A DNA stretch of 64,000 bases from Mobula hypostoma (GCF_963921235.1 NC_086108.1:19096001-19160000); one strand, 5' to 3'; counted from the first letter of the stretch, positions 4,713 through 56,593 are shown. Notes: generated by a model not told the origin, from the letters alone. Numbers and translations are program-made.

Positions 4713-6764
4713 TTACCATTGTGTTACATCACCTTTCCTTTTAGGGTACGTCCACACTAAGCTGGATAATTTTGAAAACAAAGCTGTTTTCTCTTCGTTT
4801 TGACCTTCTGTCCACACTGAAACGGCGTTTTCATCCCCCGAAAACGGAGATTTTCAGAAACGATCTCTGGAGTGAATAAATCTGAAAACGCCTAATATCC
4901 GTTGTAGTGTGTACGGGGTAACCGGAGAGATTTAAAAACGCTGTCATGACAACACCACAACAACAATGCTTTTTCTGCTTCTGCTTGGTACTGTGCAAGC
5001 TGTTATAACGCACAGTCAGTGCGAACGGCGAGAGTTAAACTGTAAAGTGAGCTTTCTCGACTATTTAAAAACGCTGTCATGACGTGCCGGAACAGATAGC
5101 CGCAGCGCGGCATTTCGTTGTCTTCTTGAACGCAACCACCTAACAATTTCAGAACAGACGGCAACGAGACTGAAGCCAGAAGGGTTGGAAATGTACTCAC
5201 CAAATACTTTGACCCATAGCTTACTGAATAAATAAGTATACTCACTTTGCCCTGTTTTCTGTCCTTGCTTGTATGAAGGTGGTTCACCTATTTATACAAG
5301 TACTTCTCTGACAATAGATGTGTAACAGCCTAATGTAACATTGTATGGAAATACAAGATAACACTGATGCAGACGTTTTATACATTTAACAAGGTGCTTT
5401 AATTAATGCAACAGAGTTAGTCAGTTTTTCAATGTTCATCGTCAGCTGGGTCATACTATCCGTGAACTCCCTGTCGGCTGCCTCCATACGCTCCAGTATT
5501 TGTTTTTTTTTAGTTTTAAGTACTCCTGCGCAAGAGCCAAGAGCAAGTCCTTTTAAGTTTTTCTACTCTGTAGCTGGACAAACACGCACCAAGTATACCG
5601 TTTCCTCTTCACTTGTTTTCTGTGTGTCCTGTGCATGTCCAGTAGAGGACATTCGCCCAAATATCCATCTAATGTGGACGGAGATATTTTGCAAAACACT
5701 TAGTGGGGATGCCTGTCGTTTTTACTCGAAACCGGCGTTTTCAAAATTATCCGGCGTAGTGTGGACATAGCCTGAATAACACTATTTAATCGTTTTGGAA
5801 CTGAGGATACTAATTGTAGTAGATTTGCAACTGGAAATTTTGTCCATTCCTGCTTGATATAAGACCTCAGCTGCTCAACAGTCCATGGTATCCGTTGTCT
5901 GATTCTCCTCTTCATGATGCACCATACATTTTCAATAGGAGATAGATCTGGACTGGCAGCAGGCCAGTCAAGCACACGCACTCTGTGTCTACAAAGCCAC
6001 GCTGTTGTAGCCCGGCAGAATGTGGTCTGGCATTGTCCAGCTGAAATAAGCATGGACGTCCCGGGAAGAGATGTCGCCTTGATGGCAACATATGTCTCTC
6101 TAAAATCCTAATATACGCCTCAGAGTCAATGGTACCTTCACATACATGCAACTCACCCATGCCATGGGCACTGATGCACCCCCATACCATCACAGATGCT
6201 AGCTTTTGCACCTTTCGCTGATAACAATCTGGATGGTCGTTTTCATCTTTGGCACGGAGAACTCAACGCCCGTTTATTCTGAAAACTAGCTGAAATGTGG
6301 ACTCATCTGACCACAGCACACGGTTCCATAGTCTTTCGGTCCATCTAAGATGAGCTCGGGTCCAGCGAACTCGTCGGCGTTTCTGCAGAGTTGATGTATG
6401 GCTTCCTCCGTGCATAATACAGTTTCAAGTTGCATTTCTGGATGCAGCGATGGACTGTGCTGAGTGACAATGGTTTTCCGAAGTACTCCCGAGCCCAGGC
6501 GGCTATAATTGTCACAGTAGCATGACGGCTTCTTAGGCAGTGCCGCCTGAGGGCTCGAAGATCACGCATATTCAACAGTGGTTTCCAACCTTCCCCTTTA
6601 CGCACTGAGATGTCTCTGAATACTCTGAATCTTTTCACAATATTATGTACTGTAGATGTTGAAAGACCTAAATTATCTGCAATCTTGCATTGAGAAATGT
6701 TCCTTTTGAACTGACTAACAATTCTCTCACGAATTTTGGCACAAGGGGGTGGGCCACAACCCAT
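4713..6764 (-). pseudogene. Tc1 transposase pseudogene (frameshifted, interrupted by a Harbinger MITE)
   Basis: HTH (IADNLGLSTSTVHNIVKRF), VLWSDE, VMVWGCIS, FQLDNARPH, WPAASPDLSPIENVW; C-terminus KRKGDVTQW* resumes at 4743-4713 beyond the MITE. Confidence 0.9.
4744..5772. mobile_element. Non-autonomous PIF/Harbinger-type element (MITE)
   Basis: 36 bp TIRs gggtacgtccacactaagctggataattttgaaaac / gttttcaaaattatccggcgtagtgtggacatagcc; 3 bp flanks TTA/TGA; removing it restores the Tc1 reading frame. Confidence 0.85.
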
Positions 6765-6942
6765 CCTTGCTTGCAAAGACTGAGCCTTTGATGGATGCTA
6801 CTTTTATACCCAGTCATGATTCCTCACCTGCTACCAATTAGCCTGCTTAATGTGGAGTCTTCCAAACCGGTGTTACTTGAATATTCTGTGCACTTTTCAA
6901 TCTTATTTTAACTCCGTCCCAACTTTTGTTGAGTGTGTTGCA

Positions 6943-9075
6943 TTAGGGTGGGCAACCTGTCAGTGTTGTGGCTCGATCTGGCAAATGCATATGGCTCCAT
7001 TCCGCACAAGCTGGTGCAGCTCACACTGACCAAATATCATGTCCCCAACAGAATCAGAGACCTTATCGCTGATTATTATAGCAATTTCAGGATGAGGGTC
7101 TCTTCAGGAGCAATTACATCAACCTGGCACAAGGTGGAGATCGGCATCATCACAGGGTGCACTATCTCAGTGACACTGTTCTCCCTAGCCATGAACATGC
7201 TCACTAAGTCTGCTGAACCAGAGTGCAGAGGGCCCAGAATGAATTCCGCTCAACGGAAACCACCTATCAGGGCATTCATGGATGACCTCACAGTACCAAC
7301 AGAATCAGTCCCAGGCTGCCGGAGGATTCTGCAAGGGCTCGAAAAGCTGGTGGCGTGGGCCCAGATGCGTTTCAAACCTGCCAAATCAAGCTCGATGGTG
7401 CTGAGGAAAGGGAAGGTGGAGAACAAGTTCCGGTTCAGCATCGCGGCACAGCCATCCCAACCATCACAGAAAAGCCAGTCAAGAGCTTAGGCAAAATTTT
7501 TGACAGCTCTTTAAGGGACACAACATCCATCCAGGCAACCTGCACCGAGTTGGATGGCTGGCTGAAATCTGTGGACAAGTCTGGCCTACCTGGGAAGTTT
7601 AAAGCCTGGGTATATCAGCATGGCATTCTTCCCAGAATCCTGTGGCCCCTCCTCGTCTATGCAGTTCCAATCTCGACAGTCGAAACCTTAGAGAGGAGGG
7701 TTAGCAACCACCTCAGGAGATGGCTGGGGCTGCCAAAGAGCCTGAGCAGCATCGCACTCTATGGACACCACAACAAACTGCAACTGCCCTTCAAATCCTT
7801 GGAGGAAGAATTCAAGGTAACAAGAGCCAGAGAAGTGCTACAGTATAGGGACTTAAGTGACCCAAAGGTGGCTAGAGCAGGGATCCAAGTAAGTACTGGC
7901 AGGAAGTGGAGGGCAGAGGAAGCTGTTCAGGAGGCAGAGGCGAGGCTACGTCACAGGAGGCTGGTGGGAGTGGTCACACGAGGCCGAGCTGGGCTAGGAT
8001 CCTTTCCAACTCCCCAAATGGACACCAGAGGGAAGGAAAGGCGTCGTCTAGTTCAGGAGGAGGTGAGAGCAGTAGTGGAGGAGATGAGAGCCTGCAAGGT
8101 GGTGGGAATGAAGCAACAGGGAGCTTGGACAAGATGGGAGAATGCGGTTGAGAAGAAAGAGACCTGGGCTGATCTTTGGAAAGCCGAACCACACCGCACC
8201 CAATTTCTCATCCAGGCAGTGTACAATGTGCTTCCAAGCCCATCAAACCTGCACACATGGGGCAAGGCAGAGTGCCCACTGTGCTCCAAGCGAGGAACTC
8301 TGGAGCACATCCTCAGTGGCTGTGCAAGGGCACTTGGTGAGGGACAGTACAGGTGGAGGCATGATCAGGTCCTGAAGACCATCGCTGAAGCTGTCAGTAT
8401 AGGCGTTGAGTGGGTGAAGCAGTCCCGACCCTCCAAGCAGACCATTGCCTTTGTCAGAGCTGGGGAGCAGCCAATACCTGCCAAAGGAACATCTGCAGGC
8501 ATTCTGATCTCTGCAAGGGACTGGCAGCTGTTGGTGGACCTCTCAGGGCAGCTGAAGTTCCCCAACCATATCGTAGCCACCACCCTGCGACCAGACATTG
8601 TCCTAGTGTCTGAGTCTACTAAGCAAGTGGTGCTGCTGGAGCTGACAGTCCCATGGGAAGATAGCTTGGAGGAGGCCTTTGAAAGGAAGCTCTCCAAATA
8701 CGCAGGACTGGTCAGCAACTGTCAGCAGGCTGGATGGAGAGTGAGGTGCCTCCCAGTGGAGGTTGGTTGTAGGGGATTCATAGCCCGTTCTTTAGTTAGA
8801 GCCTTCAGCATTTTGGGCATCGAGGGAGAGAGGAAGAAGAGAGCCATCCGCAGTACCACCAATAAGGCAGAGAGGGCCTCAAGATAGCTGTGGCTCAAAA
8901 GAGGGGAGCCATGGAGTCATAAGTAGCTAGCCATCTGGACACAAGCTGGGGTCTGATCAGCCCCGGCTGGGTCACCTGGAGGAGGGTGTATGATGTTGAA
9001 AGACCCGAAACACCCGATGATTCCAGGAACATCACTGAAGATGTGTCCAGAAGCATCAATAGATGTATGTACACA
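6943..9075 (+). mobile_element. 5'-truncated R2-group (Hero-like) non-LTR retrotransposon
   Basis: Inserted inside the right Tc1 TIR with GCA repeated at 6940-6942 and 9076-9078; RT plus restriction-like endonuclease ORF and structured 3' UTR. Confidence 0.88.
6950..8926 (+). pseudogene. RT-CCHC-RLE polyprotein remnant
   Basis: WLDLANAYGSIPH, GIITGCTIS, AFMDDL (RT); CPLCSKRGTLEHILSGC, RHDQVL, RPDIVL, ELTVPWE (RLE). One frameshift near 7440 and a premature TAG at 8885-8887; likely natural stop 8924-8926. Confidence 0.88.
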
Positions 9076-29900: not shown

Positions 29901-30957
29901 GCTCCTTCCCCACTCAGCCTTTGGGGTGGCTACACTGAGCGTGTGCATCCTTCAACATATACTGTATTTCTGCACCCTGGAATGTGCCAGTCATCAGGAT
30001 TCACTCGCAGAGATCTAAAAAAAACCCACTAGGCTACCAAAGTAAGTTAACACTCTGAATGTTTTTTATGTAAGAGAGGCCTCATTTATGCTGTTCAAGT
30101 CAGGGCTACCATCTGCAACAAAACTGTCACGTAAATGAGCCATGGATCAGATTAGATCAGAATGTAGCAAATTCAGAAACACTTGAACGCCTTTGAATTC
30201 CCATGTCTGAATCTACATCGGAATCCTGTTACATGTCAACGCTTGGTCTATGAAACCAACTTCGTGCCTTTCCCAAGGGGCAGAGCAACAATGGGATGAG
30301 TCAACATAATCCCATGCCTCACAATGGGCTTTAATTTTGCATGCAATAAGATTGCTTTAAATGTATCAATGACATGATGCAGTGCTCTTGATCGAACTCC
30401 CAGAGATCTATGTCTCAAAACAAAGCAATAGTATAAAAATTCTACAGTTATTAAAGATTGCCAATGTTTCTCCAATCTAATCTTTTGTATGTGTACAGCA
30501 TTTAAAACAGGCAAAAACACTTCAGCACACACTTAGCCAGAGTTGCCTCAAAGTTATACTCCTGAGTTGGCTTTCAAATCAAGAGACTCAAATCTAGTTA
30601 TCTTTTGAACTTGTATAAGAAGCTTACAGGAAGATGAATGAGAATGAGAGTGGAGAAAAGGATGCAGAATCAGGACAAACGAGCGGCATAAACTCACTGA
30701 GAAGGGACACAAGGAACCACAGATGCAGGAGGTACTCAGTTTCCTCAAATTTCGATGATCCGTTTCCTCCCACAGATGCTGCTCGACCCAATTAGTTCAC
30801 CCTGCAGACTATAAATTTTACTGAGAGCTCTCTGTGAGAGGTGTTGGGCCATATTCTCCTTTCAGCAGCAAATATCTCCACCGGCAAGCGACAAAGCCTC
30901 TCTTCAACACATTTTCAGGAGCTTTATAAAGAGTTAGTCACTATGTTAAGGTAATAT

Positions 30958-32003
30958 AGAGGTTGTAGACGGGTCATATTCTGCATGGAGGTTGGTGACC
31001 AGTGGTATGCCTCAGGGATCTGTTCTGGGACCCCTTCTCTTCGTGATTTTTATAAATGACCTAGATGAGGAAGTGGAGGGATGGGTTAGTAAATTTGCTG
31101 ATGACACAAGGGTTGGGGGTGTTGTGGATAGTGTGGAGGACTGTCAGAAGTTACAGCGGGACATCGATAGGATGCCAAACTGGGCTGAGAAGTGGCAGAT
31201 GGAGCTCAACCCAGATAAGTGTGAGGTGGTTCATTTTGGTAGGTCAGGATATGATGGCAGAATATAGTATTAATGGTAAGACTCTTGGCAGTGTGGACGA
31301 TCAAAAGGATTTTGGGCTCTGAGTCCATAGGACACTCAAAGCTGCTGCACAGGTTGACTCTGTGGTTAAGAAGGCACACAGAGCATTGGCCTTTGTCAAC
31401 CGTGGGATTGAGCTCAAGAGCCGAGAGGTAATGTTACAGCTATATAGGACCCTGGTCAGACCCCACTTGGAGTACTGTGCTCAGTTCTGATCACCTCACT
31501 ACAGGAAGGATATGGAAACTTTCGAAAGGGTGCAGAGGTGATTTACAAGGATGTTGCCTGGATTGGAGAGCATGTCTTATGAAAACAAGTTTAGTGAACT
31601 TGGCCTTTTCTCCTTGGAGCGTTGGAGGATAAGAGGTGACCTGATAAGAGATGTATAAGATGATGAGAGATATTGAATGTGAGGATAGTCAGAGGATTTT
31701 TTCCCAGAGCTGAAATGGCTAACATGAGAGGACACAGTTTTAAGGTGCTTGGAGGTAGCTACAGAGATGTCAGGGGTAGGTTTTTTTTACATAGAGAGTG
31801 GGAAGTGCGTGGAACGGGCTTTCGGCGACAATGATGCAGGTGGATATGATAGGGTCTTTTAAGAGACTCCTGGACAGGTACATGGAGCTCAGAAAAATAG
31901 AGGGCTATGGGCAACCCTAGGTAATTTCTAAGGTAAGGACATGTTCAGCACAGCATTGTGGGCCGAAGGGCCTGTATTGTGCTGTAGGTTTTCTATGTTT
32001 CTA
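30958..32003 (+). mobile_element. CR1 3' fragment
   Basis: GMPQGSVLGPLLF...KFADDT; tail tgtaggttttctatgtttct. Confidence 0.92.
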
Positions 32004-33565
32004 TATAATGCTACTTTCTTTCCACCACTGACATGTGAATTATCACGAACTTTTCTCTTACATGATGAGACAAAGATATATTTGGCCAATTTAGACTATC
32101 CCTGTGGAGCCCAGTTGCCCTACAATATATTGCAGGAAGGCCTGTGAATATCCCAATTGACAACAGCTTGACATAGGGAACTGGTAGGAATACAATCTCT
32201 TTATCAAATACAAAATGGGATTCCCAGCCACAAAACCTGTGCATTAGTGGAGGTCGTTCAGCGCAATGTGTTCCTACGGGCCAACAGAGAACTTATTTAG
32301 ATTATTCTTCCTTCTCAGCACTCATCCATCAGGCTGTAGCATCCAATTCTGTCAGCGGTCAACTTGGTATTTTCGAAATGTTGGTGGGGTGGGGGGGGGG
32401 GTTCTGCTTGCACCACCCTAGATCCCACCACTCCTCGGGTGATGTCTTTCTCCTTGTATTCCATTCTAACCTTCAAGAAAATAGGCATTATTTTACTTTT
32501 TTCATTGGAAACATAGAAAACCTACAGCACAATACAGGCCCCTCGGCCCACAGAGTTGTGCCGAACATGTCCCTACCTTAGAAACTACTAAGCTTACCTA
32601 CAGCCCTCTATTTTTCTAAGCTCCATGTACCTATCCAAAAGTATCTTAAAAGACCCTATCGTATCCGCCTCCACCACCGTTGCCAACAGTCCATTCCACG
32701 CACTCACCACTCTCTGCGTAAAAAAACTTACCCCTGACATCTCCTCTGTACCTACTCCCAAGCATCTTAAACCTGTGTCCTCTTGTGGCAACCATTTCAG
32801 CCCTGGGAAAAAGCCTCTGACTATCCACACGATCAATGCCTCTCATCATCTTATACACCTCTATCAGGTCACCTCATCCTCCATCGCTCCAAGGAGAAAA
32901 GGCTGAGTTCACTCAACCTGTTTTCATAAGGCATGCTCCCCAATCCAGGCAACATCCTTGTAAATCTCCTCTGCACCCTTTCTATGGCTTCCACATCCTT
33001 CCTGTAGTGGGGCAACCAGAACTGAGCACAGTACTCCAAGTGGGGTCTGACTAGGGTCCTATATAGCTGCAACATTACCTCTCGGCTCCTAAATTCAATT
33101 CCACAATTGATGAAGGCCAATACACCATATGCCTTCTTAACCACAGAGTCAACCTGTGCAGCTGCTTTGAGCATCCTATGGACTCGGACCCCAAGATCCC
33201 TCTGATCTTCCACACTGCCAGGAGTCTTACCATTAATACAATATTCTGCCATTGTATTTGACCTACCAAAATGAACCACTTCACACTTATCTGGGTTGAA
33301 CTCCATCTGCCACTTCTAAACCCAGTTTTGCATCCTATCAATGTCTTGCTGTAACCTCTGACAGCTGTCTACACTATCCACAACACCTCCAACCTTTGTG
33401 TCATCAGCAAACTTACTAACCCATCCCTCCACTTCCTCATCCAGGTCATTTATAAAAATCACGAAAAGTAAGGGTCCCAGAACAGATCCCTGAGGCACAC
33501 CACTGGTCATCGACTTCCATGCAGAAAATGACCCATCTACAACCACTCTTTGCCTTCTGTGGGAA

Positions 33566-34221
33566 AGCACATTTATTTTCCCTACGTTTACACACTTAGT
33601 CCAGCGGCCATGGAGCATATGGATCCCTTCTTTATAGAAGTCGGCATCTTGGACCTCCAGAAGTGGTCCACAGCAGGGGTGATTGATACTTTCATGGCCT
33701 AAGGTAGAAGGAGATGAGTTATTAACTTCAAACTTTCTGCATTTTCACTCAAAGAGTTGAATTGCACGTGCGCATAACAAGAGCAGTATCAAGGGTCTCG
33801 GCCTGAAACGTCGACTGCGCCTCTTCCTATAGATGCTGCTTGGCCTGCTGCGTTCACCAGCAACTTTGATGTGTGTTGCATAACTCATCTCCTTCTATCT
33901 TAGGCCATGAACTTATCAATCACCCCTGCTGTGGACCATCTGGAGGTCCAAGACGCTCTAGTTACATGCACGTGCAGTTCAACTCTTTGAGTGATAATGC
34001 AGAAAGTTTGAAGTTAATAACTCATCTCCTTCTACCTTAGGCCATGAACTTATCAATCACCCCTGCTGTGGACCACTTCTAAGAAGAAGGGATCCGTATG
34101 CTCCATGACCGCTGGACTAAGTGTGTACATGTAGGAGGGGACTATGTTGAAAAATAAATGTGCTAGGTTTTCTAAAATTGACTCCTTCCACCTTACGCCA
34201 CGAACTTATCAATCACCCCTC
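33566..34221. mobile_element. Mariner-derived fold-back MITE (left end lost)
   Basis: Transposase C-terminus WTKCVHVGGDYVEK* near 34113-34157; four TIR-like copies of ggggtgattgata...aggtagaaggag; nested inverted arms. Confidence 0.8.
33790..33879 (+). mobile_element. Penelope-like terminal fragment inside the mariner MITE
   Basis: Near-identical to 40305-40393; starts just after the hammerhead CUGACG core. Confidence 0.85.
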
Positions 34222-38045: not shown

Positions 38046-38336
38046 CAACCTAGGGAAATGAAACCAGTATCTTCTGTTCTTCACAAATATATTTCCATGA
38101 TTTTGAAGACATCAATTATCCTATGTTTCAAAAAAAACTACCCAGCCTAGCCAAACTCCTCTTGATAACAAACCTAAGAAATACTGATGTAAATTTCTGT
38201 ATCCCTTCTATGGAATCATGCAGTACATAGTTTTCCATGTCTTCCCTAATAAAGACAATTCCCTTCTTAACTAACAACATACATCAAAGTTGCTGGTGAA
38301 CGCAGCAGGCCAAGCAGCATCTATAGGAAGAGGCGC

Positions 38337-38372
38337 AGTCGACGTTTCAGGCCGAGACCCTTCGTCAGGACT
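38337..38372 (-). ncRNA. Minimal type I hammerhead ribozyme motif
   Basis: Reverse complement reads AGUC-CUGACGA-AGG(gucucgg)CCU-GAAA-CGUC-GACU. Confidence 0.85.
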
Positions 38373-38666
38373 AACTGAAGGAAGAGTGAGTAAGGGATTT
38401 GAAAGCTGGAGGGGGAGGGGGAGATGCAAAATGATAGGAGAAGACAGGAGCGGGAGGGATGGAGCCAAGAGCTGGACAGGTGATAGGCAAAAGGGGATAC
38501 GAGAGGATCATGGGACAGGAGGTCCGGGAAGAAAGACAAGGGGGGGGGTGACCCAGAGGATGGGCAAGAGGTATATTCAGAGGGACAGAGGGAGAAAAAG
38601 GAGAGTGAGAGAAAGAATGTGTGCATAAAAATGAGTAACAGATGAGGTACGACGGGGAGGTGGGGC

Positions 38667-39546
38667 CTAGCGGAAGTTAGAGAAGTCGATGTTCATGCCA
38701 TCAGGTTGGAGGCTACCCAGACGGAATATAAGGTGTTGTTCCTCCAACCTGAGTGTGGCTTCATCTTTACAGTAGAGGAGGCCGTGGATAGACATGTCAG
38801 AATGGGAATGGGATGTGGAATTAAAATGTGTGGCCACTGGGAGATCCTGCTTTCTCTGGCGGACAGAGCGTAGATGTTCAGCAAAGCGGTCTCCCAGTCT
38901 GCGTCGGGTCTCACCAATATATAAAAGGCCACATCGGGAGCACCGGACGCAGTACATCACCCCAGTCGACTCACAGGTGAAGTGATGCCTCACCTGGAAG
39001 GACTGTTTGGGGCCCTGAATGGTGGTAAGGGAGGAAGTGTAAGGGCATGTGTAGCACTTGTTCTGCTTACACGGATAAGTGCCAGGAGGGAGATCAGTGG
39101 GGAGGGATGGGGGGGTACGAATGGACAAGGGAGTTGTGTAGGGAGCGATCCCTGCGGAATGCAGAGAGAGGGGGGGAGGGAAAGATGTGCTTAGTGGTGG
39201 TATCCCGTTGGAGGTGGCGGAAGTTACGGAGAATAATATGTTGGACCCGGAGGCTGGTGGGGTGGTAGGTGAGGACCAGGGGAACCCTATTCCTAGTGGG
39301 GTGGTGGGAGGATGGAGTGAGAGCAGATGTACGTGAAATGGGGGAGATGCGTTTAAGAGCAGAGTTGATAGTGGAGGAAGGGAAGCCCCTTTCTTTAAAA
39401 AATGAAGACATCTCCCTCGTCCTAGAATGAAAAGCCTCATCCTGAGAGCAGATGCGGCGGAGACGGAGGAATTGCGAGAAGGGGATGGCGTTTTTGCAAG
39501 AGACAGGGTGAGAAGAGGAATAGTCCAGATAGCTGTGAGAGTCAGG
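38667..39546 (-). pseudogene. PLE RT-thumb, Cys linker and GIY-YIG endonuclease remnant (left arm)
   Basis: YLDYSSSHP...IPFSQFLRLRRICS; PCKQNKCYTC; GVMYCVRCSRCGLLYIGETRRRLGDRFAEH...RLEEQHLIF. Confidence 0.9.
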
Positions 39547-39557
39547 ATTCGTCCCCC

Positions 39558-40001
39558 CCATCCCTCCCCACTGATCTCCCTCCTGGCACTTATCTGTGTA
39601 AGCGGAACAAGTGCTACACATGCCCTTACACTTCCTCCCTTACCACCATTCAGGGCCCCAAACAGTCCTTCCAGGTGAGGCATCACTTCACCTGTGAGTC
39701 GACTGGGGTGATATACTGCGTCCGGTGCTCCCGATGTGGCCTTTTATATATTGGTGAGACCCGACGCAGACTGGGAGACCGCTTTGCTGAACATCTACGC
39801 TCTGTCCGCCAGAGAAAGCAAGATCTCCCAGTGGCCACACATTTTAATTCCACATCCCATTCCCATTCTGACATGTCTATCCACGGCCTCCTCTACTGTA
39901 AAGATGAAGCCACACTCAGGTTGGAGGAACAACACCTTATATTCCGTCTGGGTAGCCTCCAACCTGATGGCATGAACATTGACTTCTCTAACTTCCGCTA
40001 G
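39558..40001 (+). pseudogene. PLE GIY-YIG endonuclease remnant (right arm)
   Basis: CKRNKCYTC...GVIYCVRCSRCGLLYIGETRRRLGDRFAEH...GMNIDFSNFR*. Confidence 0.9.
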
Positions 40002-40294
40002 GCCCCACCTCCCCCTCGTACCCCATCTGTTACTCATTTTTATGCACACATTCTTTCTCTCACTCTCCTTTTTCTCCCTCTGTCCCTCTGAATATACCTC
40101 TTGCCCATCCTCTGGGTCACCCCCCCCTTGTCTTTCTTCCCGGACCTCCTGTCCCATGATCCTCTCGTATCCCCTTTTGCCTATCACCTGTCCAGCTCTT
40201 GGCTCCATTCCTCCCCCTCCTGTCTTCTCCTATCATTTTGCATCTCCCCCTCCCCCTCCAGCTTTCAAATCCCTTACTCACTCTTCCTTCAGTT

Positions 40295-40330
40295 AGTCCT
40301 GACGAAGGGTCTCGGCCTGAAACGTCGACT
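40295..40330 (+). ncRNA. Minimal type I hammerhead ribozyme motif
   Basis: Stem I agtc/gact, CUGACGA 40299-40305, stem II agg/cct, GAAA 40319-40322, palindromic ACGU stem III, predicted cleavage after C40326. Confidence 0.85.
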
Positions 40331-43300
40331 GCGCCTCTTCCTATAGATGCTGCTTGGCCTGCTGTGTTCACCAGCAACTTTGATGTATGTTGCTTGAATT
40401 TCCAGCATCTGCAGAATTCCTGTTGTTTCCCTTCTTAACTACCTCTTTCTTTAGGAATCACTGCACAAAACACCACCTCAAACTACATTTCCCTTTCACT
40501 CTTAATCTTATGCTTCTTTTGTTGTTTATTTTCACGCAACTTATGTTTAATTGATGCTAATTTAAGTTTATGTTAACTTATATTTGTCTTCTTCATGTGC
40601 TGTGCTGTTGCTGCACAAAGCTAATTTTCATGACATTTATATCCTGGGTATATATGTCCATGACAACAATAAATTTAAACTTAAACACACTCCAATCACT
40701 GCTTCACTACACTTCTTAGAATCTATTTATTGTGTAACTCTATTCCCTGGCCTCGTTCAATTTCTCCAAAGGAATCACCTCTCATGACTTCAAACTGAAT
40801 ACCATTTGCCTGTGTGGTGTCACTTGATACCATTTGCTTGTGTAATGTCACTTGAGTCCTCTTTTGATATTTTCCTATTGCCTTACACTTTCTTCTTTAC
40901 TATCAATTACACTGCCATTTTAGTCTTTACAGGAACTTTATCATGGGACCTAGCATTGAAGTCATGTCATTAGTAAATACTAGGCAAAGCAAAAGGCCTA
41001 TTACTGATACCCTATCACAAACAACCCCTTCCTCCATCTAGTACCCTCCTGTTGGCTGCTATCTGTCAGTAGTCGTCAAGCCTACTGAAATCTTCCAGTC
41101 AAACTTCAACTTCGGTGCAGAGAAGAATGGCACTGTGTCAGGTCAGTTGTAACTAACTCCTACTCATCAGTAAGCAAGAAAATGCAGATTCAGCAGCTCT
41201 GAAATAAAGAGGCAATGCTGGAAACACTCAGCAGGTCAGGCAGGAGGTGTGGAAAGAGAAACAGGCGTAAAATTTCAAGTCTTTATCTCACGTCGGCTGC
41301 CTGGCCTATGGAGTATCTCTACCATTTTCTATTTTTATTCTGGTGTTATATCCCGTCTTAGGTAGCCACCTCTGTTAGTGCAAGATGTACACTGAATCTG
41401 GAAGTCATGGCGCAAATCAGTTGAGGTGAGGTTTACTGCATGCATGGAAAGTCCTTGGATACCCAAAAAGACATTGCTGATAATATTTTTAAAAGCAAAC
41501 TAATAAAACTGCAGATACTAGAACTCAAAACAAATCAAAACTGCTGGAAGAAGTCAGCCCATCAAGCAGCATCTGTGTAAGGAGAAAGCAATGAATGTTT
41601 CTGGTCAGGGCACCTCCCAACATTTTCTGTTTTTGTTTCTTAATGGCAAAGGACAACTCCTCTTGATTTCTGGAATGTTCTGCCAGTATTGCCAAGCTTT
41701 CCGTAATTATTATAAATTCCGATTTTGTTTAACCCTGTTTTTGTCTTGGGCTTTCCTTATCTATTTGACCTTAAATCAGTCAGGGCCACGTCTAACACCA
41801 GTTGCCCAAGGGGCAGTAATTAGGCCTCAAATTGTCTGATATATCCTACGACAATCGATGTCTTATTTCAATGGTCTGAACCATCACACATCTGGTTAAC
41901 AGGTTTCAATGGTAAGAGAACTGAAATTTATAGCTGGCCCCCTGCAGCTGCCCTCGCAACCCATGGGATAATGTTAACTCAATACTCCCTTTGGTTCATA
42001 GGTTGTTAAGATACCAAGGGCCATTTGAAGCTGACAGAACCTCTCTGCTGATGTGCTAAACCATTTATTCAGAGGAGTGCACACTGTTCCTTCCACAAGT
42101 TTTCAGAACTAGTCTTTGCCAATAAACAGAGCACAACCTTCCTGCAGGCGGTGCAGAGAGAAACTCTGCCAAACATGCAATGCCCTCGACAACTGCAGAA
42201 GCCAAAAGGCGCCTTGCAGGAGGCAAAAAAGAATGTGCTGGCTGCACTGGCCGAGAGTCAGCAGATTGGGAATGACCAGCCTGGAGCCAGACTTCAGCCA
42301 AAGATTATACATATGTTTACTTGGAAAGGAATAACTCGTATTTATATTGCACCTTTCAAACCCCAACATATCCCAAACCACACCATAGTTCGCTAGGGAT
42401 TTATTTTGCAGTCACTGGAGCCAACTTGCACAAGTAACATCACACAAAGAGCATCAAACATCTGAAAAGATCCTCTATTTTACCAATGATAATCTCAAAG
42501 TCAATGTCAAGTTTATTGTCACCTGCACAAGTACATGTATGCACAGGTGCAGTGAAAATCTTACTTGCAACAGCATTATAAGCACATACCATCAGAAACA
42601 TAATATTCACAAGAAAAACATCAACTATCTGAAATTATGCAAGAAAGAACACAACTAAAGTATAAAAATCCCATTGCACTGCCAAGTGACCAAACAAGTC
42701 AGAGTGATTAGTTGGTTCAAGAACTGAATGGTTGAAGGGAAGTAGCTGTCCTTGAATTTGGTGGGGTGGGATCTACTAAATGTGTTTCTCTTCTGGTAGA
42801 TGCTGCCTGATCTGCTAATTATCTCCTACCTATTCTATTTTTATATTAAACTTCCTGTTTCTGTCAGTTTTGTTTCCCAACCTGCTTTACAGAGGGTGAC
42901 GGAGGAGTAAATTGTGAACTGGACTGCTTGCCCCTCTCCCAGTCATGCATGAATTACTTCATTCTGGCTGGAAGGATAAATGGGATTTCATTTAATATCT
43001 CAGCAAAGGGAGAGCACCTTGCACAGTCAGATATTCCAATACTTCACCAGGGTATTGTTTTAGACTAACATGAATTAGATCCTCAAATTTCTCAACCCTG
43101 AGTTGCACCTAGAAGCTCCTGGTTCGGAAGTGAGAGCACTACCACTCACCCATTGCTATCACATTTGGACGTGCACAGTGAAATAAACAGATGTTGGAAC
43201 TGCTATAGGGATTGCCACAGGCAGACATGCGGATGCCCACAAAGACAGTGACAGGACAACATATGGATAGTTGGAGGTATAATTCTAAATCTCTTCTCTG

Positions 43301-52492: not shown

Positions 52493-54189
52493 GCATCAAA
52501 GATGACACACAAGACAAAACTATCAAAGCAAGGCAAGTTTGAAGAAACTCTCAACTGTACATAGTCATGAAGCTATACACTTCGGCCTGCTGCATCCATG
52601 CTGACTATCAAACCAAATTCACTCCTCACACTCCCAACCTCATGCCACTCACCTACCCTAGAAGCAATAGGCAGCAGCCAGTTAACCCACCATCCAGCAC
52701 ATCCTGGACAATGTGGGAAGAAACCGAAGCACACCAGTTAAGGGAAGAATATGCAAGTGTACATAGTTTCCAAAAGTACAACCTGCTTAATTTGGTGCAG
52801 AGGCATTTAAGAGGAATTTAGACAGGCACAGAAACAGGCAGGGAATAGAGGGATATGCAACGGGCTGGCAGATGGCATTCATTTGAATGGCATCATGGTC
52901 TTCAAGTGAAGATGGTATGTCTTTACAATATCACAAGGGAAGGTACAAATTAAGCACCAAAATTATGTGCTCATTTCAGGATCTGGGCAGAACAGCAGTC
53001 ACTGGGAGGCTACTCGGTGATGGACATTTCATATCAAGTGACTTGTTAGGAGCTTTATCTCGGAGCAAGGAGTAGATACACAGCACAAGACAATGTTCCA
53101 GCTAGACAGATGTGATAACACAGATTTAGAGTGATAGAGCCGAAGTTGCTGTGTCCCAAAAATAAAAAACAGAAAGAGAAAAATAAATACAAGAGCTCAC
53201 TATGGCTGCTCTGTAATACTATGATATGAGATGTCATTTCAGAAAGCTAGGTATCATTGTTTGGTTTCATTCGTAGCTCTGCTAGATGATGTGCTTGTGA
53301 TGAGGTATCACGTGCCCACATAATCCATTGTTCCCCCCCCCACCCCCGTTTCCTCACCAGCAGGGCACAACACATATCTTTCTTTTCGATAATGAAGAAG
53401 CCGATTTGGCCCATCAGGCCTCTGCTGGCTCTCATTCCTCCACTAACTTCCCTGCAGTCTACTCTCTCAAACACATAGCCACTAGCAGTCATGCAGCAAG
53501 AAGCAATGTCACTGTCTACTGAACTATGCTATTCAAAATAGATAAGGAAGCCACCACATATTCTAAAGGGGGTGGGTGAGCAGCCAGTTGCCTTGGTACA
53601 TGTTGGTACCAATGACATAGATAGGACAAAGGAGGAGGTCCTGAAGACAGATTTCCAGGAGTTAGGAAGGAAGCTGAGAAGCAGGACCTCCAGGGTAGTA
53701 ATCTCGGGATTGCTACCTGTGCCACGTGCTAGCGAGGGCAAGAATAGGAGGATCAGGCAGATGAATGCGTGGCTGAGAGACTGGTGTAGGGGGCAGGGCT
53801 TCAGATTCTTGGATAATTGGGATATCTTCTGGGGGAAGTATGACCTGTTCAAAAAGGACAGGTTACACCTGAACCCAAAAGGGACCAATATCCTGGCGGG
53901 AAAGTTTAATAGAGCTGTTAGGGAGGGTTTAAACTAATTTGGCAGGGGGATGGGAACCGAAATGACAGCGGAGGAAGGGAAAAACAGAAATAAATCTAAG
54001 ATAGTGAGCAGTAAAGATGTCAGGATAGACAGGCAGGTGAAGGGGCAAATTTGTAGCCATTCGGATGAGTTGCAGTGCAATAAAGTTGTAGTGAAATCAA
54101 AGCGAAAAGTATCAAATACTGGTCTTACAACACACATCAAAGTTGCTGGTGAACGCAGCAGGCCAGGCAGCATCTGTAGGAAGAGGTGC

Positions 54190-54225
54190 AGTCGACGTTT
54201 CAGGCCGAGACCCTTCGTCAGGACG
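54190..54225 (-). ncRNA. Minimal hammerhead ribozyme motif
   Basis: Reverse complement GUC-CUGACGA-AGG...CCU-GAAA-CGUC-GAC. Confidence 0.8.
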
Positions 54226-54253
54226 AACTGAAGGAAGAGTGAGTAAGGGAAAA

Positions 54254-54289
54254 AGTCCTGACGAAGGGTCTCGGCCTGAAACGTCAACT
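54254..54289 (+). ncRNA. Minimal hammerhead ribozyme motif (stem I closing pair mutated)
   Basis: agtc-CTGACGA-agggtctcggcct-GAAA-cgtc-aact; A instead of G at 54286. Confidence 0.7.
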
Positions 54290-56593
54290 GCACCTCTTCC
54301 TACAGATGCTGCCTGGCCTGCTGCGTTCACCAGCAACTTTGATGTGTGTTGCTTGAATTTCCAGCATCTGCAGTATTCCTGTTGTTTGCGTTTAAATACT
54401 GGTCTTAAGGTGCTGTACTTAAATGCACGCAGCATAAGGAATAAGGTGGATGATCTTGTTGTACAGCTACAGATTGGCAGGTATGATATTGTGGCCATCA
54501 CTGAGACCTGGCTAAAGGATGCATGTCTCTGGGAGCTGAACGTCCAAGGATACACGGTGTATCGGAAGGATGGGAAGGTAGGCAGAGGGGGAGGCGTGGC
54601 TTTATTGGTAAGAAATGATATTAAATCATTAGAGAGGTGATATAGGATCAGAAGGTGCAGAATCTTTATGGGTTGAGCTAAGAAATAGCAGGGGTAAAAG
54701 GACCCTAATGGCAGTTATTTATAGGCCTCCAAACAGCTGCAGGGATGTGGACTACAAATTACAACAGGAAATAGAAAAGGCTTGTCAGAAGGGCAGTGTT
54801 ATGATAATTGTGGGGGATTTTAACATGCGAGTGGATTGGGAAAAGCAGGTCAGCACTGGATCTCAAGAGAGAGAATTTGTAGAATATCTGCGAGATGGCT
54901 TTTTAGATCAGCTTGTTGTTGAGCCCACTAGGGGATCGGCTGTACTGGATTGGGTATTGTGTAATGAACCGGAGGTGATTAGAGAGATTGAGGTGAAGGA
55001 ACCCTTAGGAGGCAGTGATCATAACATGATTGAATTCATTGTGAAATTTGAAAAAGAGAAGCCGAAATCTGAAGTGTCGGTATTTCAGTGGAGTAAAGGA
55101 AACTACAGTGGCATGAGAGAGGAACTGGCCAAAGTTGACTGGAAAGGGACGCTGGCGGGAAAGACAGCAGAGCAGCAGTGGCTGGAGTTTATGCGAGAAA
55201 TGAGGAAGGTGCAAGACAGGTATATTCCAAAAAAGAAGAAATTTTCGAGTGGAAGAAGGATGCAACTGTGGTTGACAAGAGAAGTCAAAGCCAAAGTTAG
55301 ATCAAAGGAGAGGGCATACAAGGAAGCAAAAATTACTGGGAAGACAGAGGATTGGGAAGTTTTTAAAACCTTACAAAAGGAAACCAAGAAGGTCATTAAG
55401 AGGGAAAAGATTAACTATGAAAGGAAGCTAGCAAATAATATCAAAGAGGATACTAAAAGCTTTTTCAAGTATATAAAGAGTAAAAGACAGGTGAGAGTAG
55501 ATATAAGACCCATAGAAAATGATGCTGGGGAAATTGTAATGGGAGATGAGGAGATGGCAGAGGAACTGAACGAGTATTTTGCATCAGTCTTCACTGAGGA
55601 AGACATCAGCAGTATACTGGACACTCAAGGGTGGCAGGGAAGAGAACTGTGCGCAGTCACAATTACGACAGAGAAAGTACTCAGGAAGCTGAATAGTCTA
55701 AGGTAGATAAATCTCCTGGACCAGATGGAATGCACCCTCGTGTTCTGAAGGAAGTAGCTGTGGAGATTGCGGAGGCATTAGCGATGATCTTTCAAAAGTC
55801 GATAGATTCTGGCATGGTTCCGTAGGACTGGAAGATTGCAAATGTCACTCCCTTATTTAAGAAGGGGGCAAGGAAGCAAAAAGGAAATTATAGACCTGTT
55901 AGCTTGACATCGGTGGTTGGGAAGTTGTTGGAGTCGATTGTCAAGGATGAGGTTACAGAGTACCTGGAGGCATATGACAAGATAGGCAGAACTCAGCATG
56001 GATTCCTTAAAGGAAAATCCTGCCTGACAAACCTATTACAATTTTTTGAGGAAATTACCAGTAGGCTAGACAAGGGAGATGCAGTGGATGTTGTATATTT
56101 GGATTTTCAGAAGGCCTTTGACAAGGTGCCACACGTGAGGCTACTTAACAAGATAAAAGCCCATGGAATTACGGTAAAGTTACATACGTGGATAGAGCCT
56201 AGGCTGATTAGCAGGAAACAGAGAGTGGGAATAAAGGGATCCTATTCTGGTTGGCTGCCGGTTACCAGTGGTGTTCCACAGGGATCCGTGTTGGGGCCGC
56301 TTCTTTTTACATTGTACATCAACGATTTGGATTATGGAATAGATGGCTTTGTGGCTAAGTTTGCTGACGATACGAAGATAGGTGGAGGGGCCGGTAGTGC
56401 TGAGGAAACAGAGAGTCTGCAGAGAGACTTGGATAGATTAGAAGAATGGGCAGAGAAGTGGCAAATGAAGTATAATGTTGGAAAGTGTATGGTTATGCAC
56501 TTTGGCAGAAAAAATAAACGGGCAGACTAATATTTAAATGGGGAAAGAATTCAAAGTTCTGAGATGCAACGGGACTTGGGAGTCCTCGTACAG

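What the first reader, a model, noticed from the sequence alone, without database searches (positions are those of the whole stretch)
54128..54393. 266 bp protein-free twin-hammerhead palindrome, a candidate minimal ribozyme retroelement
Seen: a discrete insertion with a perfect 14 bp TSD made almost entirely of two opposing hammerheads (54190-54225 minus, 54254-54289 plus), ~97 bp inverted arms, a ~30 nt spacer and a ~40 nt tail. The plus arm starts exactly at hammerhead stem I. Established: retrozymes are non-autonomous elements with hammerheads in direct repeats; here they are inverted, placing a ribozyme on each strand. Inference: either an extreme truncation product of the PLE family at 38-40 kb, or a self-propagating mini-element mobilised in trans that could also act as a two-way transcript-cleavage cassette in introns.
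Basis: partly seen in the sequence, partly recalled or inferred. Interest (0 to 1): 0.75.

Follow-up and report, generated by a model that had tools for sequence, protein, structure and literature searches.

The report
Back-to-back Penelope retroelement stub
The 266-base mirror-image insertion is real but ordinary: it is two cut-short ends of a very abundant Penelope-type jumping gene joined back to back, likely in a single insertion event, its central joint occurs nowhere else in the genome, and its two small ribozyme motifs are predicted to be locked shut by the hairpin.

Summary
Observation confirmed; interpretation mostly not. The element is two 5'-truncated 3' ends of a ~3.5-kb Neptune-type Penelope-like element (PLE) joined head to head. 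It sits in a CR1-type LINE with a 14-bp TSD; 585 empty sites exist. Its junction is unique in 3.48 Gb (exact, and with 2 mismatches allowed), so it has not propagated. The shape is common: at least 1,049 twin-hammerhead stubs. Among the first 50 there are 47 different junctions, all 50 have one short end plus one tailed end, and the two arms share subfamily markers (263 of 278). Both motifs are minimal PLE hammerheads without helix III, which need a same-strand partner. Each has a helix I mismatch, and a 97-bp hairpin buries them (about 60 kcal/mol). Head-to-head PLE copies with a one-sided tail, and opposite-strand hammerhead pairs, are published. This scan found the same thing repeatedly on other DNA of this genome. 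The modest residue is family statistics: they fit priming from both strands at two fixed RNA start sites, and 5' breaks pile up just upstream of the ribozyme, not at its cut site.

The parts
54114..54127 (+). left copy of the 14-bp target-site duplication
   Evidence: empty site found 585 times
54128..54250 (-). left arm: PLE 3' end in reverse, from the 'short' end (+66 from the ribozyme cut site) to a 5' break at -57
   Evidence: 96% identity to the full-length tandem copy L115
54190..54225 (-). minimal type I hammerhead motif, no helix III; outer pair of helix I is a C-U mismatch; predicted cut between 54194 and 54193
54251..54254 (.). 3-4 nt A filler at the head-to-head junction; junction unique in the genome
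54254..54289 (+). minimal type I hammerhead motif, no helix III; helix I pair next to the cut site is a C-A mismatch (54286, the one difference between the arms); predicted cut after 54285
54255..54351 (+). right arm: PLE 3' end from a 5' break at -31/-32 (helix I) to +66
54352..54393 (+). one-sided 'tail' (to +108; +112 if the 4-nt overlap with the TSD is counted); in tandem parents this is the start of the ORF
54394..54407 (+). right copy of the 14-bp target-site duplication
53542..53937 (+). host LINE, ORF1 fragment with SGNH/GDSL esterase domain (context)
   Evidence: PF13472 E 1.4e-13
54398..56530 (+). host LINE, frameshifted ORF2 pieces with AP endonuclease and reverse transcriptase (context)
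   Evidence: PF03372, PF14529, PF00078
38275..40428 (.). longer sister insertion of the same PLE family: head-to-head arms breaking at -1204 and -781, short end left, tail right, GIY-YIG coding
33791..33879 (+). single-arm stub of the same family (-22 to +67)

Best explanation
It is a non-coding, single-copy stub of a Penelope-like retroelement, two 5'-truncated 3' ends joined head to head, likely made in one insertion event in which both strands of a staggered cut primed reverse transcription, with ribozyme motifs that are predicted to be inactive passengers. Shown: identity of both arms with the PLE 3' end, the TSD, the unique junction, the short-plus-tail asymmetry, and the shared subfamily markers of the two arms. 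Inferred steps: (1) the PLE protein (RT plus GIY-YIG) nicks both strands about 14 nt apart; (2) one target 3' end primes cDNA at the tail start site (about +102 to +110) and the other at the short start site (about +66), on the same RNA or on RNAs of one source locus; (3) both cDNAs stop early, here at -57 and -31, inside a zone where breaks are 4-6 times more frequent; (4) host end-joining links the two cDNA ends with a few filler bases, and fill-in gives the TSD. Any transcript across it would fold into a 97-bp hairpin that hides the sense ribozyme.
For: Parent: tandem pLTR-ORF-pLTR copies with a 3516-nt period and a 1043-codon frame matching RVT_1 and GIY-YIG, both below Pfam's curated cut-off in that protein; the window's own GIY-YIG piece passes it. 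Abundance: 111,609 exact copies of a 3'-end 23-mer, 41,517 of the ribozyme 34-mer, 618 of an ORF-start 23-mer. Junction unique. At least 1,049 twin stubs with a 15-45 nt middle. In the first 50 of them: 47 distinct middles, 50 of 50 short+tail, a TSD called in 43 of 50 with median 14 nt. Arms differ 3.6% within an insertion against 8.4% between insertions, and agree at 263 of 278 diagnostic sites where 40-70% is expected (49 loci including the window copy; 2 dropped for short overlap). In a sample anchored only on the 3' end, 34 of 35 two-armed insertions are short+tail, arm lengths correlate (Spearman 0.69, p 4e-6), and either arm can reach further 5' (14 short, 12 tail, 9 equal), which a simple cDNA fold-back does not give. 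The ribozyme fold costs 59-63 kcal/mol in the whole element against 6-8 in an isolated arm. Literature: PAc cleaves and extends both strands and has two RT start sites that define the tail (PMC11167929); inverted 5'-truncated copy with a one-sided tail is typical of PLEs (PMC8557442, PMC3846280).
Against: The mechanism is inferred from DNA end products, not observed. Fold-back followed by later asymmetric deletion of the palindrome centre could also leave either arm longer. Two junctions were found twice with different flanks: L187/L188, 10 kb apart with separate TSDs, and a long-arm junction at C1:399820 and C1:1824722. So junctions can be copied, though each has only 2 copies, on one contig. 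One of 35 two-armed cases had two tails, without an evident TSD. Only 50 of 1,049 twin stubs were inspected, all from contig C1. Ribozyme inactivity is a folding prediction; PAc's ribozyme needed protein to cleave, and protein help was not modelled.
Confidence: 0.85

Rival explanations
1. Same identity (dead PLE stub), but the inverted arm was made by self-priming or fold-back of one cDNA, or from an antisense template as proposed for rotifer PLEs, with the centre trimmed afterwards.
For: Arms share subfamily markers and have correlated lengths; many middles are near-perfect palindromes or microhomology joins. Self-priming is proposed in PMC3846280.
Against: A fold-back copy cannot contain sequence absent from the first strand. 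The tail-less arm reaches further 5' than the tailed arm in 14 of 35 unbiased cases, sometimes by hundreds of bases, and in this element (-57 against -31). Two-strand extension with two start sites is seen in vitro.
Confidence: 0.09
2. A self-propagating, MITE- or retrozyme-like mini-element mobilised in trans by the PLE protein.
For: At least 1,049 elements of the same outline. It keeps both RT start regions. One filler-bearing junction occurs in two TSD-flanked copies (L187/L188). pLTR-bounded passenger DNA can be moved in trans (PMC3846280).
Against: This junction occurs once. 47 of 50 middles are distinct. Two of the three repeated middles are filler-free joins that differ in tail side or subfamily markers. 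In the third, L188 has discordant arms, which fits local gene conversion from its neighbour.
Confidence: 0.04
3. A functional two-way RNA cleavage cassette, or a co-opted double-stranded RNA hairpin, acting on host transcripts.
For: Both catalytic cores are intact in sequence. A transcript would form a 97-bp duplex, which could be a substrate for editing or small-RNA pathways (inference).
Against: No helix III and no same-strand partner; a single minimal hammerhead showed no cleavage and dimers only low cleavage (PMC4209133). Helix I is mismatched in both copies, and helix pairing probabilities in the whole element are below 1e-19. It lies inside a broken LINE copy. No sign of conservation was looked for or found.
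Confidence: 0.02

Closest known systems
Inverted (head-to-head) insertions of endonuclease-bearing Penelope-like elements with a one-sided 30-40 bp tail (Penelope of D. virilis, PMC2377424; Pen2a_Av, PMC3846280; Fig. 2 legend of PMC8557442; passages read)
   Same: [quoted passage not shown]
   Different: Both arms are cut down to 123 and 139 nt, so no coding sequence is left beyond the tail. TSDs here centre on 14 nt, against 8-10 in the rotifer examples.
Minimal type I hammerheads (min-HHR) of metazoan PLE pseudo-LTRs (Cervera and de la Pena 2014, PMC4209133; parts 1-2 of 4 read)
   Same: Core CUGAnGA...GAAAC-GUC with no helix III, palindromic 15.2-16.2, an extra base before helix II and a short helix I. 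That paper also reports pairs 100-700 bp apart on opposite strands, attributed to truncated PLEs.
   Different: The pair here is closer (28 nt between motifs). Position 11.1 is U (G-U wobble) in this subfamily, and each copy has a helix I mismatch.
PAc (Poseidon of Anolis carolinensis) in vitro mechanism (Frangieh et al. 2024, PMC11167929; parts 1-2 of 4 read)
   Same: Two RT start sites about a tail-length apart, downstream of the ribozyme and in the ORF start; no role seen for the ribozyme cut (2 of 100 breaks within 3 nt of it here).
   Different: This family has the Neptune-type CxxxxCxxC linker before GIY-YIG (clade trait from PMC8557442). A 4-nt target/tail overlap is present at this copy's right end.
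Non-LTR retrozymes (Cervera and de la Pena 2020, search listing and abstract start only; bioRxiv 10.64898/2026.07.22.740005, part 1 of 5 and passages read)
   Same: Protein-free, type I hammerhead, derived from PLE pLTR sequence.
   Different: Retrozymes are head-to-tail tandem units with same-strand ribozymes that release monomers or circles. This is an inverted single-copy pair that cannot do so.

Membership tests
EN+ Penelope-like element insertion (truncated) | Sequence derives from an element with RT followed by a C-terminal GIY-YIG in one ORF | tested here: met
   Arms 95-96% identical to L115 and the 38-40 kb copy. L104 1043-codon frame matches RVT_1 (E 3.9e-5) and GIY-YIG (E 1.1e-3), both below curated cut-offs; the window piece passes the GIY-YIG cut-off.
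EN+ Penelope-like element insertion (truncated) | Partial tandems forming pLTRs in full-length copies | tested here: met
   L104, L108, L115: ribozyme region repeated 3515-3516 nt apart.
EN+ Penelope-like element insertion (truncated) | Inverted 5'-truncated copy with a 30-40 bp tail on one side only | tested here: met
   This element; 50 of 50 twin stubs; 34 of 35 unbiased two-armed insertions.
EN+ Penelope-like element insertion (truncated) | Target-site duplication | tested here: met
   14 bp; 585 empty sites.
Neptune clade of PLEs | CX2-5CxxC linker between RT and endonuclease | tested here: met
   C-x4-C-x2-C motif read in the L104 translation; trait described in PMC8557442.
Neptune clade of PLEs | Phylogenetic placement of the RT with named Neptune elements | not tested
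   No named PLE reference proteins were fetched; no tree built.
Minimal PLE hammerhead (min-HHR) | Conserved core with helices I and II, no helix III, palindromic 15.2-16.2 | tested here: met
   Sequence and folds of isolated arms; no Rfam family reaches its threshold.
Minimal PLE hammerhead (min-HHR) | Self-cleavage as a same-strand dimer | not testable with these tools
   Needs an assay; anatomy and folding predict none in this context.
Non-LTR retrozyme | Two or more head-to-tail units, each with a same-strand hammerhead | tested here: not met
   Motifs are on opposite strands, in one inverted pair.
Non-LTR retrozyme | Expressed as monomeric or circular RNA | not testable with these tools
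   No run on record as RNA was listed; contigs only.
Propagating non-autonomous mini-element (MITE- or SINE-like) | Many dispersed copies sharing one internal junction with different TSDs | tested here: not met
   1 copy in 3.48 Gb; 47 distinct middles among 50 look-alikes.

The most novel reading that the evidence does not exclude
The thousands of mirror-image stubs in this genome are a direct footprint of how Penelope-like elements integrate: one enzyme dimer primes both strands of a ~14-nt staggered cut on one RNA, always using the short start site for one strand and the tail start site for the other, and copying preferentially ends in a 30-nt zone just behind the ribozyme, because of an RNA 5' end or a ribozyme-linked stop. 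That would explain the long-unexplained inverted repeats and one-sided tails of PLEs in one model.
Probability: 0.4. Interest if true: 0.5.

Novelty: new member of a known kind. Interest (0 to 1): 0.17.

Why it matters
As a locus it matters little: it is one of more than a thousand such stubs, inside a dead LINE. As a class, the stubs give large-sample constraints on the unresolved second-strand step of PLE retrotransposition (strict short+tail pairing, same-template arms, either arm longer, breaks clustered upstream of the ribozyme rather than at its cut). These can be tested in the existing PAc in vitro system. They also warn annotators that TSD-flanked palindromes of this kind are not MITEs or retrozymes.

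Tried and rejected
Rfam scan of the window: no match at gathering thresholds. Propagating family: rejected for this junction. Ribozyme cut as the source of the 5' ends: 2 of 100 breaks lie within 3 nt of the cut. Spliced template: the pyrimidine tract plus CAG just before helix I looks like a splice acceptor, as in D. virilis Penelope, but none of the 42 non-canonical upstream contexts among 288 matched an upstream exon and no GT(A/G)AG donor lies in the last 400 nt of the unit; not supported. Simple 'transcript starts at about -35' model: among 30 ORF-start loci, 17 run far into the ORF, 14 of those pass -19, and only 2 of the 14 stop in the hot zone, against 32 of about 83 for 3' stubs (Fisher p 0.13). 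A single start site for all templates is therefore unlikely; a mix of RNAs remains possible. Expression: no RNA holder listed; contigs of four runs laid on a full-length copy were uninformative. My first reference arm wrongly included part of the inverted arm and was replaced by L115. My first ribozyme fold constraint used a 3-bp helix II and was redone with the 4-bp helix. Whether the site lies in a host intron was not established. Literature searches for a described family of twin-hammerhead palindromes or a two-strand priming model found the papers cited but none on this family; supplements were not read, Repbase and Dfam were not available, and the paper on dimer cleavage of PLE hammerheads (Lunse et al., recalled) was not in the listings.

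Full report
Observation. It sits between the SGNH-esterase ORF1 and the endonuclease/RT ORF2 of a broken LINE ('CR1-type' is my label from that domain layout). The uninterrupted target occurs 585 times in the genome, so the TSD is real. Positions below are counted from the predicted ribozyme cut site.

What it is made of. Both arms are 95-96% identical to the 3' end of a Penelope-like element (PLE) that also lies at 38275-40428 and 33791-33879. [quoted passage not shown] The left arm runs from +66 to -57 on the minus strand, so most of the 'spacer' is parent sequence; 3-4 A residues follow; the right arm runs from -31 to +108 and includes the tail, which in tandem parents is the start of the ORF. 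The family is huge: 111,609 exact copies of a 3'-end probe, 41,517 of the ribozyme, but only 618 of an ORF-start probe.

Has it propagated? No. The junction is found once, exactly and with 2 mismatches over 32 nt. The outline is common: 1,049 places have two opposing ribozyme starts 15-45 nt apart, a lower bound since exact 15-mers were required. I examined the first 50 listed, all on contig C1. They have 47 distinct middles. Two repeated middles are filler-free joins whose copies differ in tail side or subfamily markers. The third, L187/L188, shares a 19-nt filler, has exactly two copies 10 kb apart with separate TSDs, and L188's arms disagree with each other, which fits gene conversion. A long-arm junction also occurs twice on C1. 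These exceptions show that junctions can be copied locally; they do not show a dispersed family.

How it was likely made. All 50 twin stubs have one short end and one tailed end; a TSD was called in 43 of 50, median 14 nt, by a caller that allowed small shifts and one mismatch. Arms of one insertion differ 3.6% against 8.4% between insertions and agree at 263 of 278 diagnostic sites (49 loci including the window copy, 2 dropped), so they come from one template or source. In a sample anchored only on the 3' end, 47 of 100 listed anchors belong to two-armed insertions. Among 35 such insertions (from 116 anchors in hand) 34 are short+tail, arm lengths correlate (rho 0.69), and the tail-less arm reaches further 5' in 14, the tailed arm in 12, with 9 equal. 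A plain fold-back of one cDNA cannot make the tail-less arm longer. Priming from both strands of a staggered cut can, and the anole element PAc cleaves and extends both strands in vitro and uses two start sites that define the tail (PMC11167929). This step is inference: fold-back with later central deletion, or the antisense self-priming proposed in PMC3846280, is not excluded.

Where copies break. 32 of 100 anchored arms break between -19 and -49, a rate of 1.56 per 100 nt against 0.34 before and 0.25 after (nominal p 3e-7 and 1e-8, overstated because paired arms are not independent). In single-arm copies of at least 90% identity (44) the excess is weaker: 0.92 against 0.40 (p 0.12) and 0.17 (p 0.003). 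Short inverted matches around helix I may attract two-arm joins (inference). Only 2 of 100 breaks lie at the cut site. Near-full-length copies mostly run through this zone (2 of 14 stop there), so one fixed transcript start does not explain everything; the cause remains open.

The ribozymes. Both are minimal type I hammerheads without helix III, the kind described in PLE pLTRs. A single one showed no cleavage and dimers only low cleavage, and opposite-strand pairs 100-700 bp apart were already noted in Schistosoma and attributed to truncated PLEs (PMC4209133). Here any transcript carries one sense motif and its complement. Forcing the ribozyme fold costs 59-63 kcal/mol, against 6-8 in an isolated arm, and each copy has a helix I mismatch. 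Cleavage was not assayed, and no usable RNA data were available.

Comparison and verdict. It works like, and belongs to, the known inverted, one-tailed insertions of endonuclease-bearing PLEs (PMC8557442, PMC3846280, PMC2377424). It fails the retrozyme test of head-to-tail same-strand units (bioRxiv 10.64898/2026.07.22.740005) and the shared-junction test of a propagating mini-element. Earlier notes of this scan report the same kind of stub many times elsewhere in this genome, which they call a ray genome, a label I did not check. My reading was set before that look-up and rests on my own calls. Interest is low for the locus; the family statistics are a modest, testable lead on PLE integration.

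Noticed in passing
L187 and L188 (G000:C1:111302596 and 111312809): Two twin stubs 10 kb apart share a 19-nt filler junction found nowhere else, yet have different flanks and TSDs; L188's arms carry different subfamily markers. Likely gene conversion between neighbours, possibly re-mobilisation.
   Followed up: partly
G000:C1:399820 and C1:1824722 (L318, L319): The same long head-to-head junction (-2650/-825) occurs in exactly two places 1.4 Mb apart; the first copy has two tails and no evident TSD, suggesting ectopic recombination.
   Followed up: partly
L216:475-1130 (G000:C1:2960764-2961419) and G000:C1:170438: A composite insertion: a twin stub, about 335 nt of non-PLE DNA and a further PLE stub, apparently inside one TSD. 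The non-PLE part next to the stub resembles the upstream flank of a stub at C1:170438, as if flanking DNA was carried along.
   Followed up: no
L320-L349: 13 of 30 ORF-start loci are copies whose 3' end lies at +238 to +320, suggesting a further reverse-transcription start region inside the ORF start; 3 of the 9 that pass -19 end at -38 to -48.
   Followed up: no
G000:C2:157816676-157817628 (listing): The ORF-start probe recurs four times at a 310-bp period: a head-to-tail PLE-derived minisatellite that could be a true retrozyme-like array if each unit holds the ribozyme.
   Followed up: no
window 30948-33556: Two about 1.05-kb LINE segments in inverted orientation, 87% identical (30948-32001 / 32508-33556).
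   Followed up: no
window 6933-8887 (+): Frameshifted ORFs of a non-LTR element with RT-like and C-terminal CCHC/restriction-like motifs (by eye, no family scan), next to Tc1-like transposase pieces at 5700-6797.
   Followed up: no
window 33581-34135: The single-arm PLE stub at 33791-33879 sits inside an inverted-repeat element about 550 bp long, probably a non-autonomous DNA transposon.
   Followed up: no
window 54268-54277 and relatives: Subfamilies differ at hammerhead position 11.1: C (canonical G-C) in 18 of 98 arms, U (G-U wobble) in 80 of 98, including this element.
   Followed up: no
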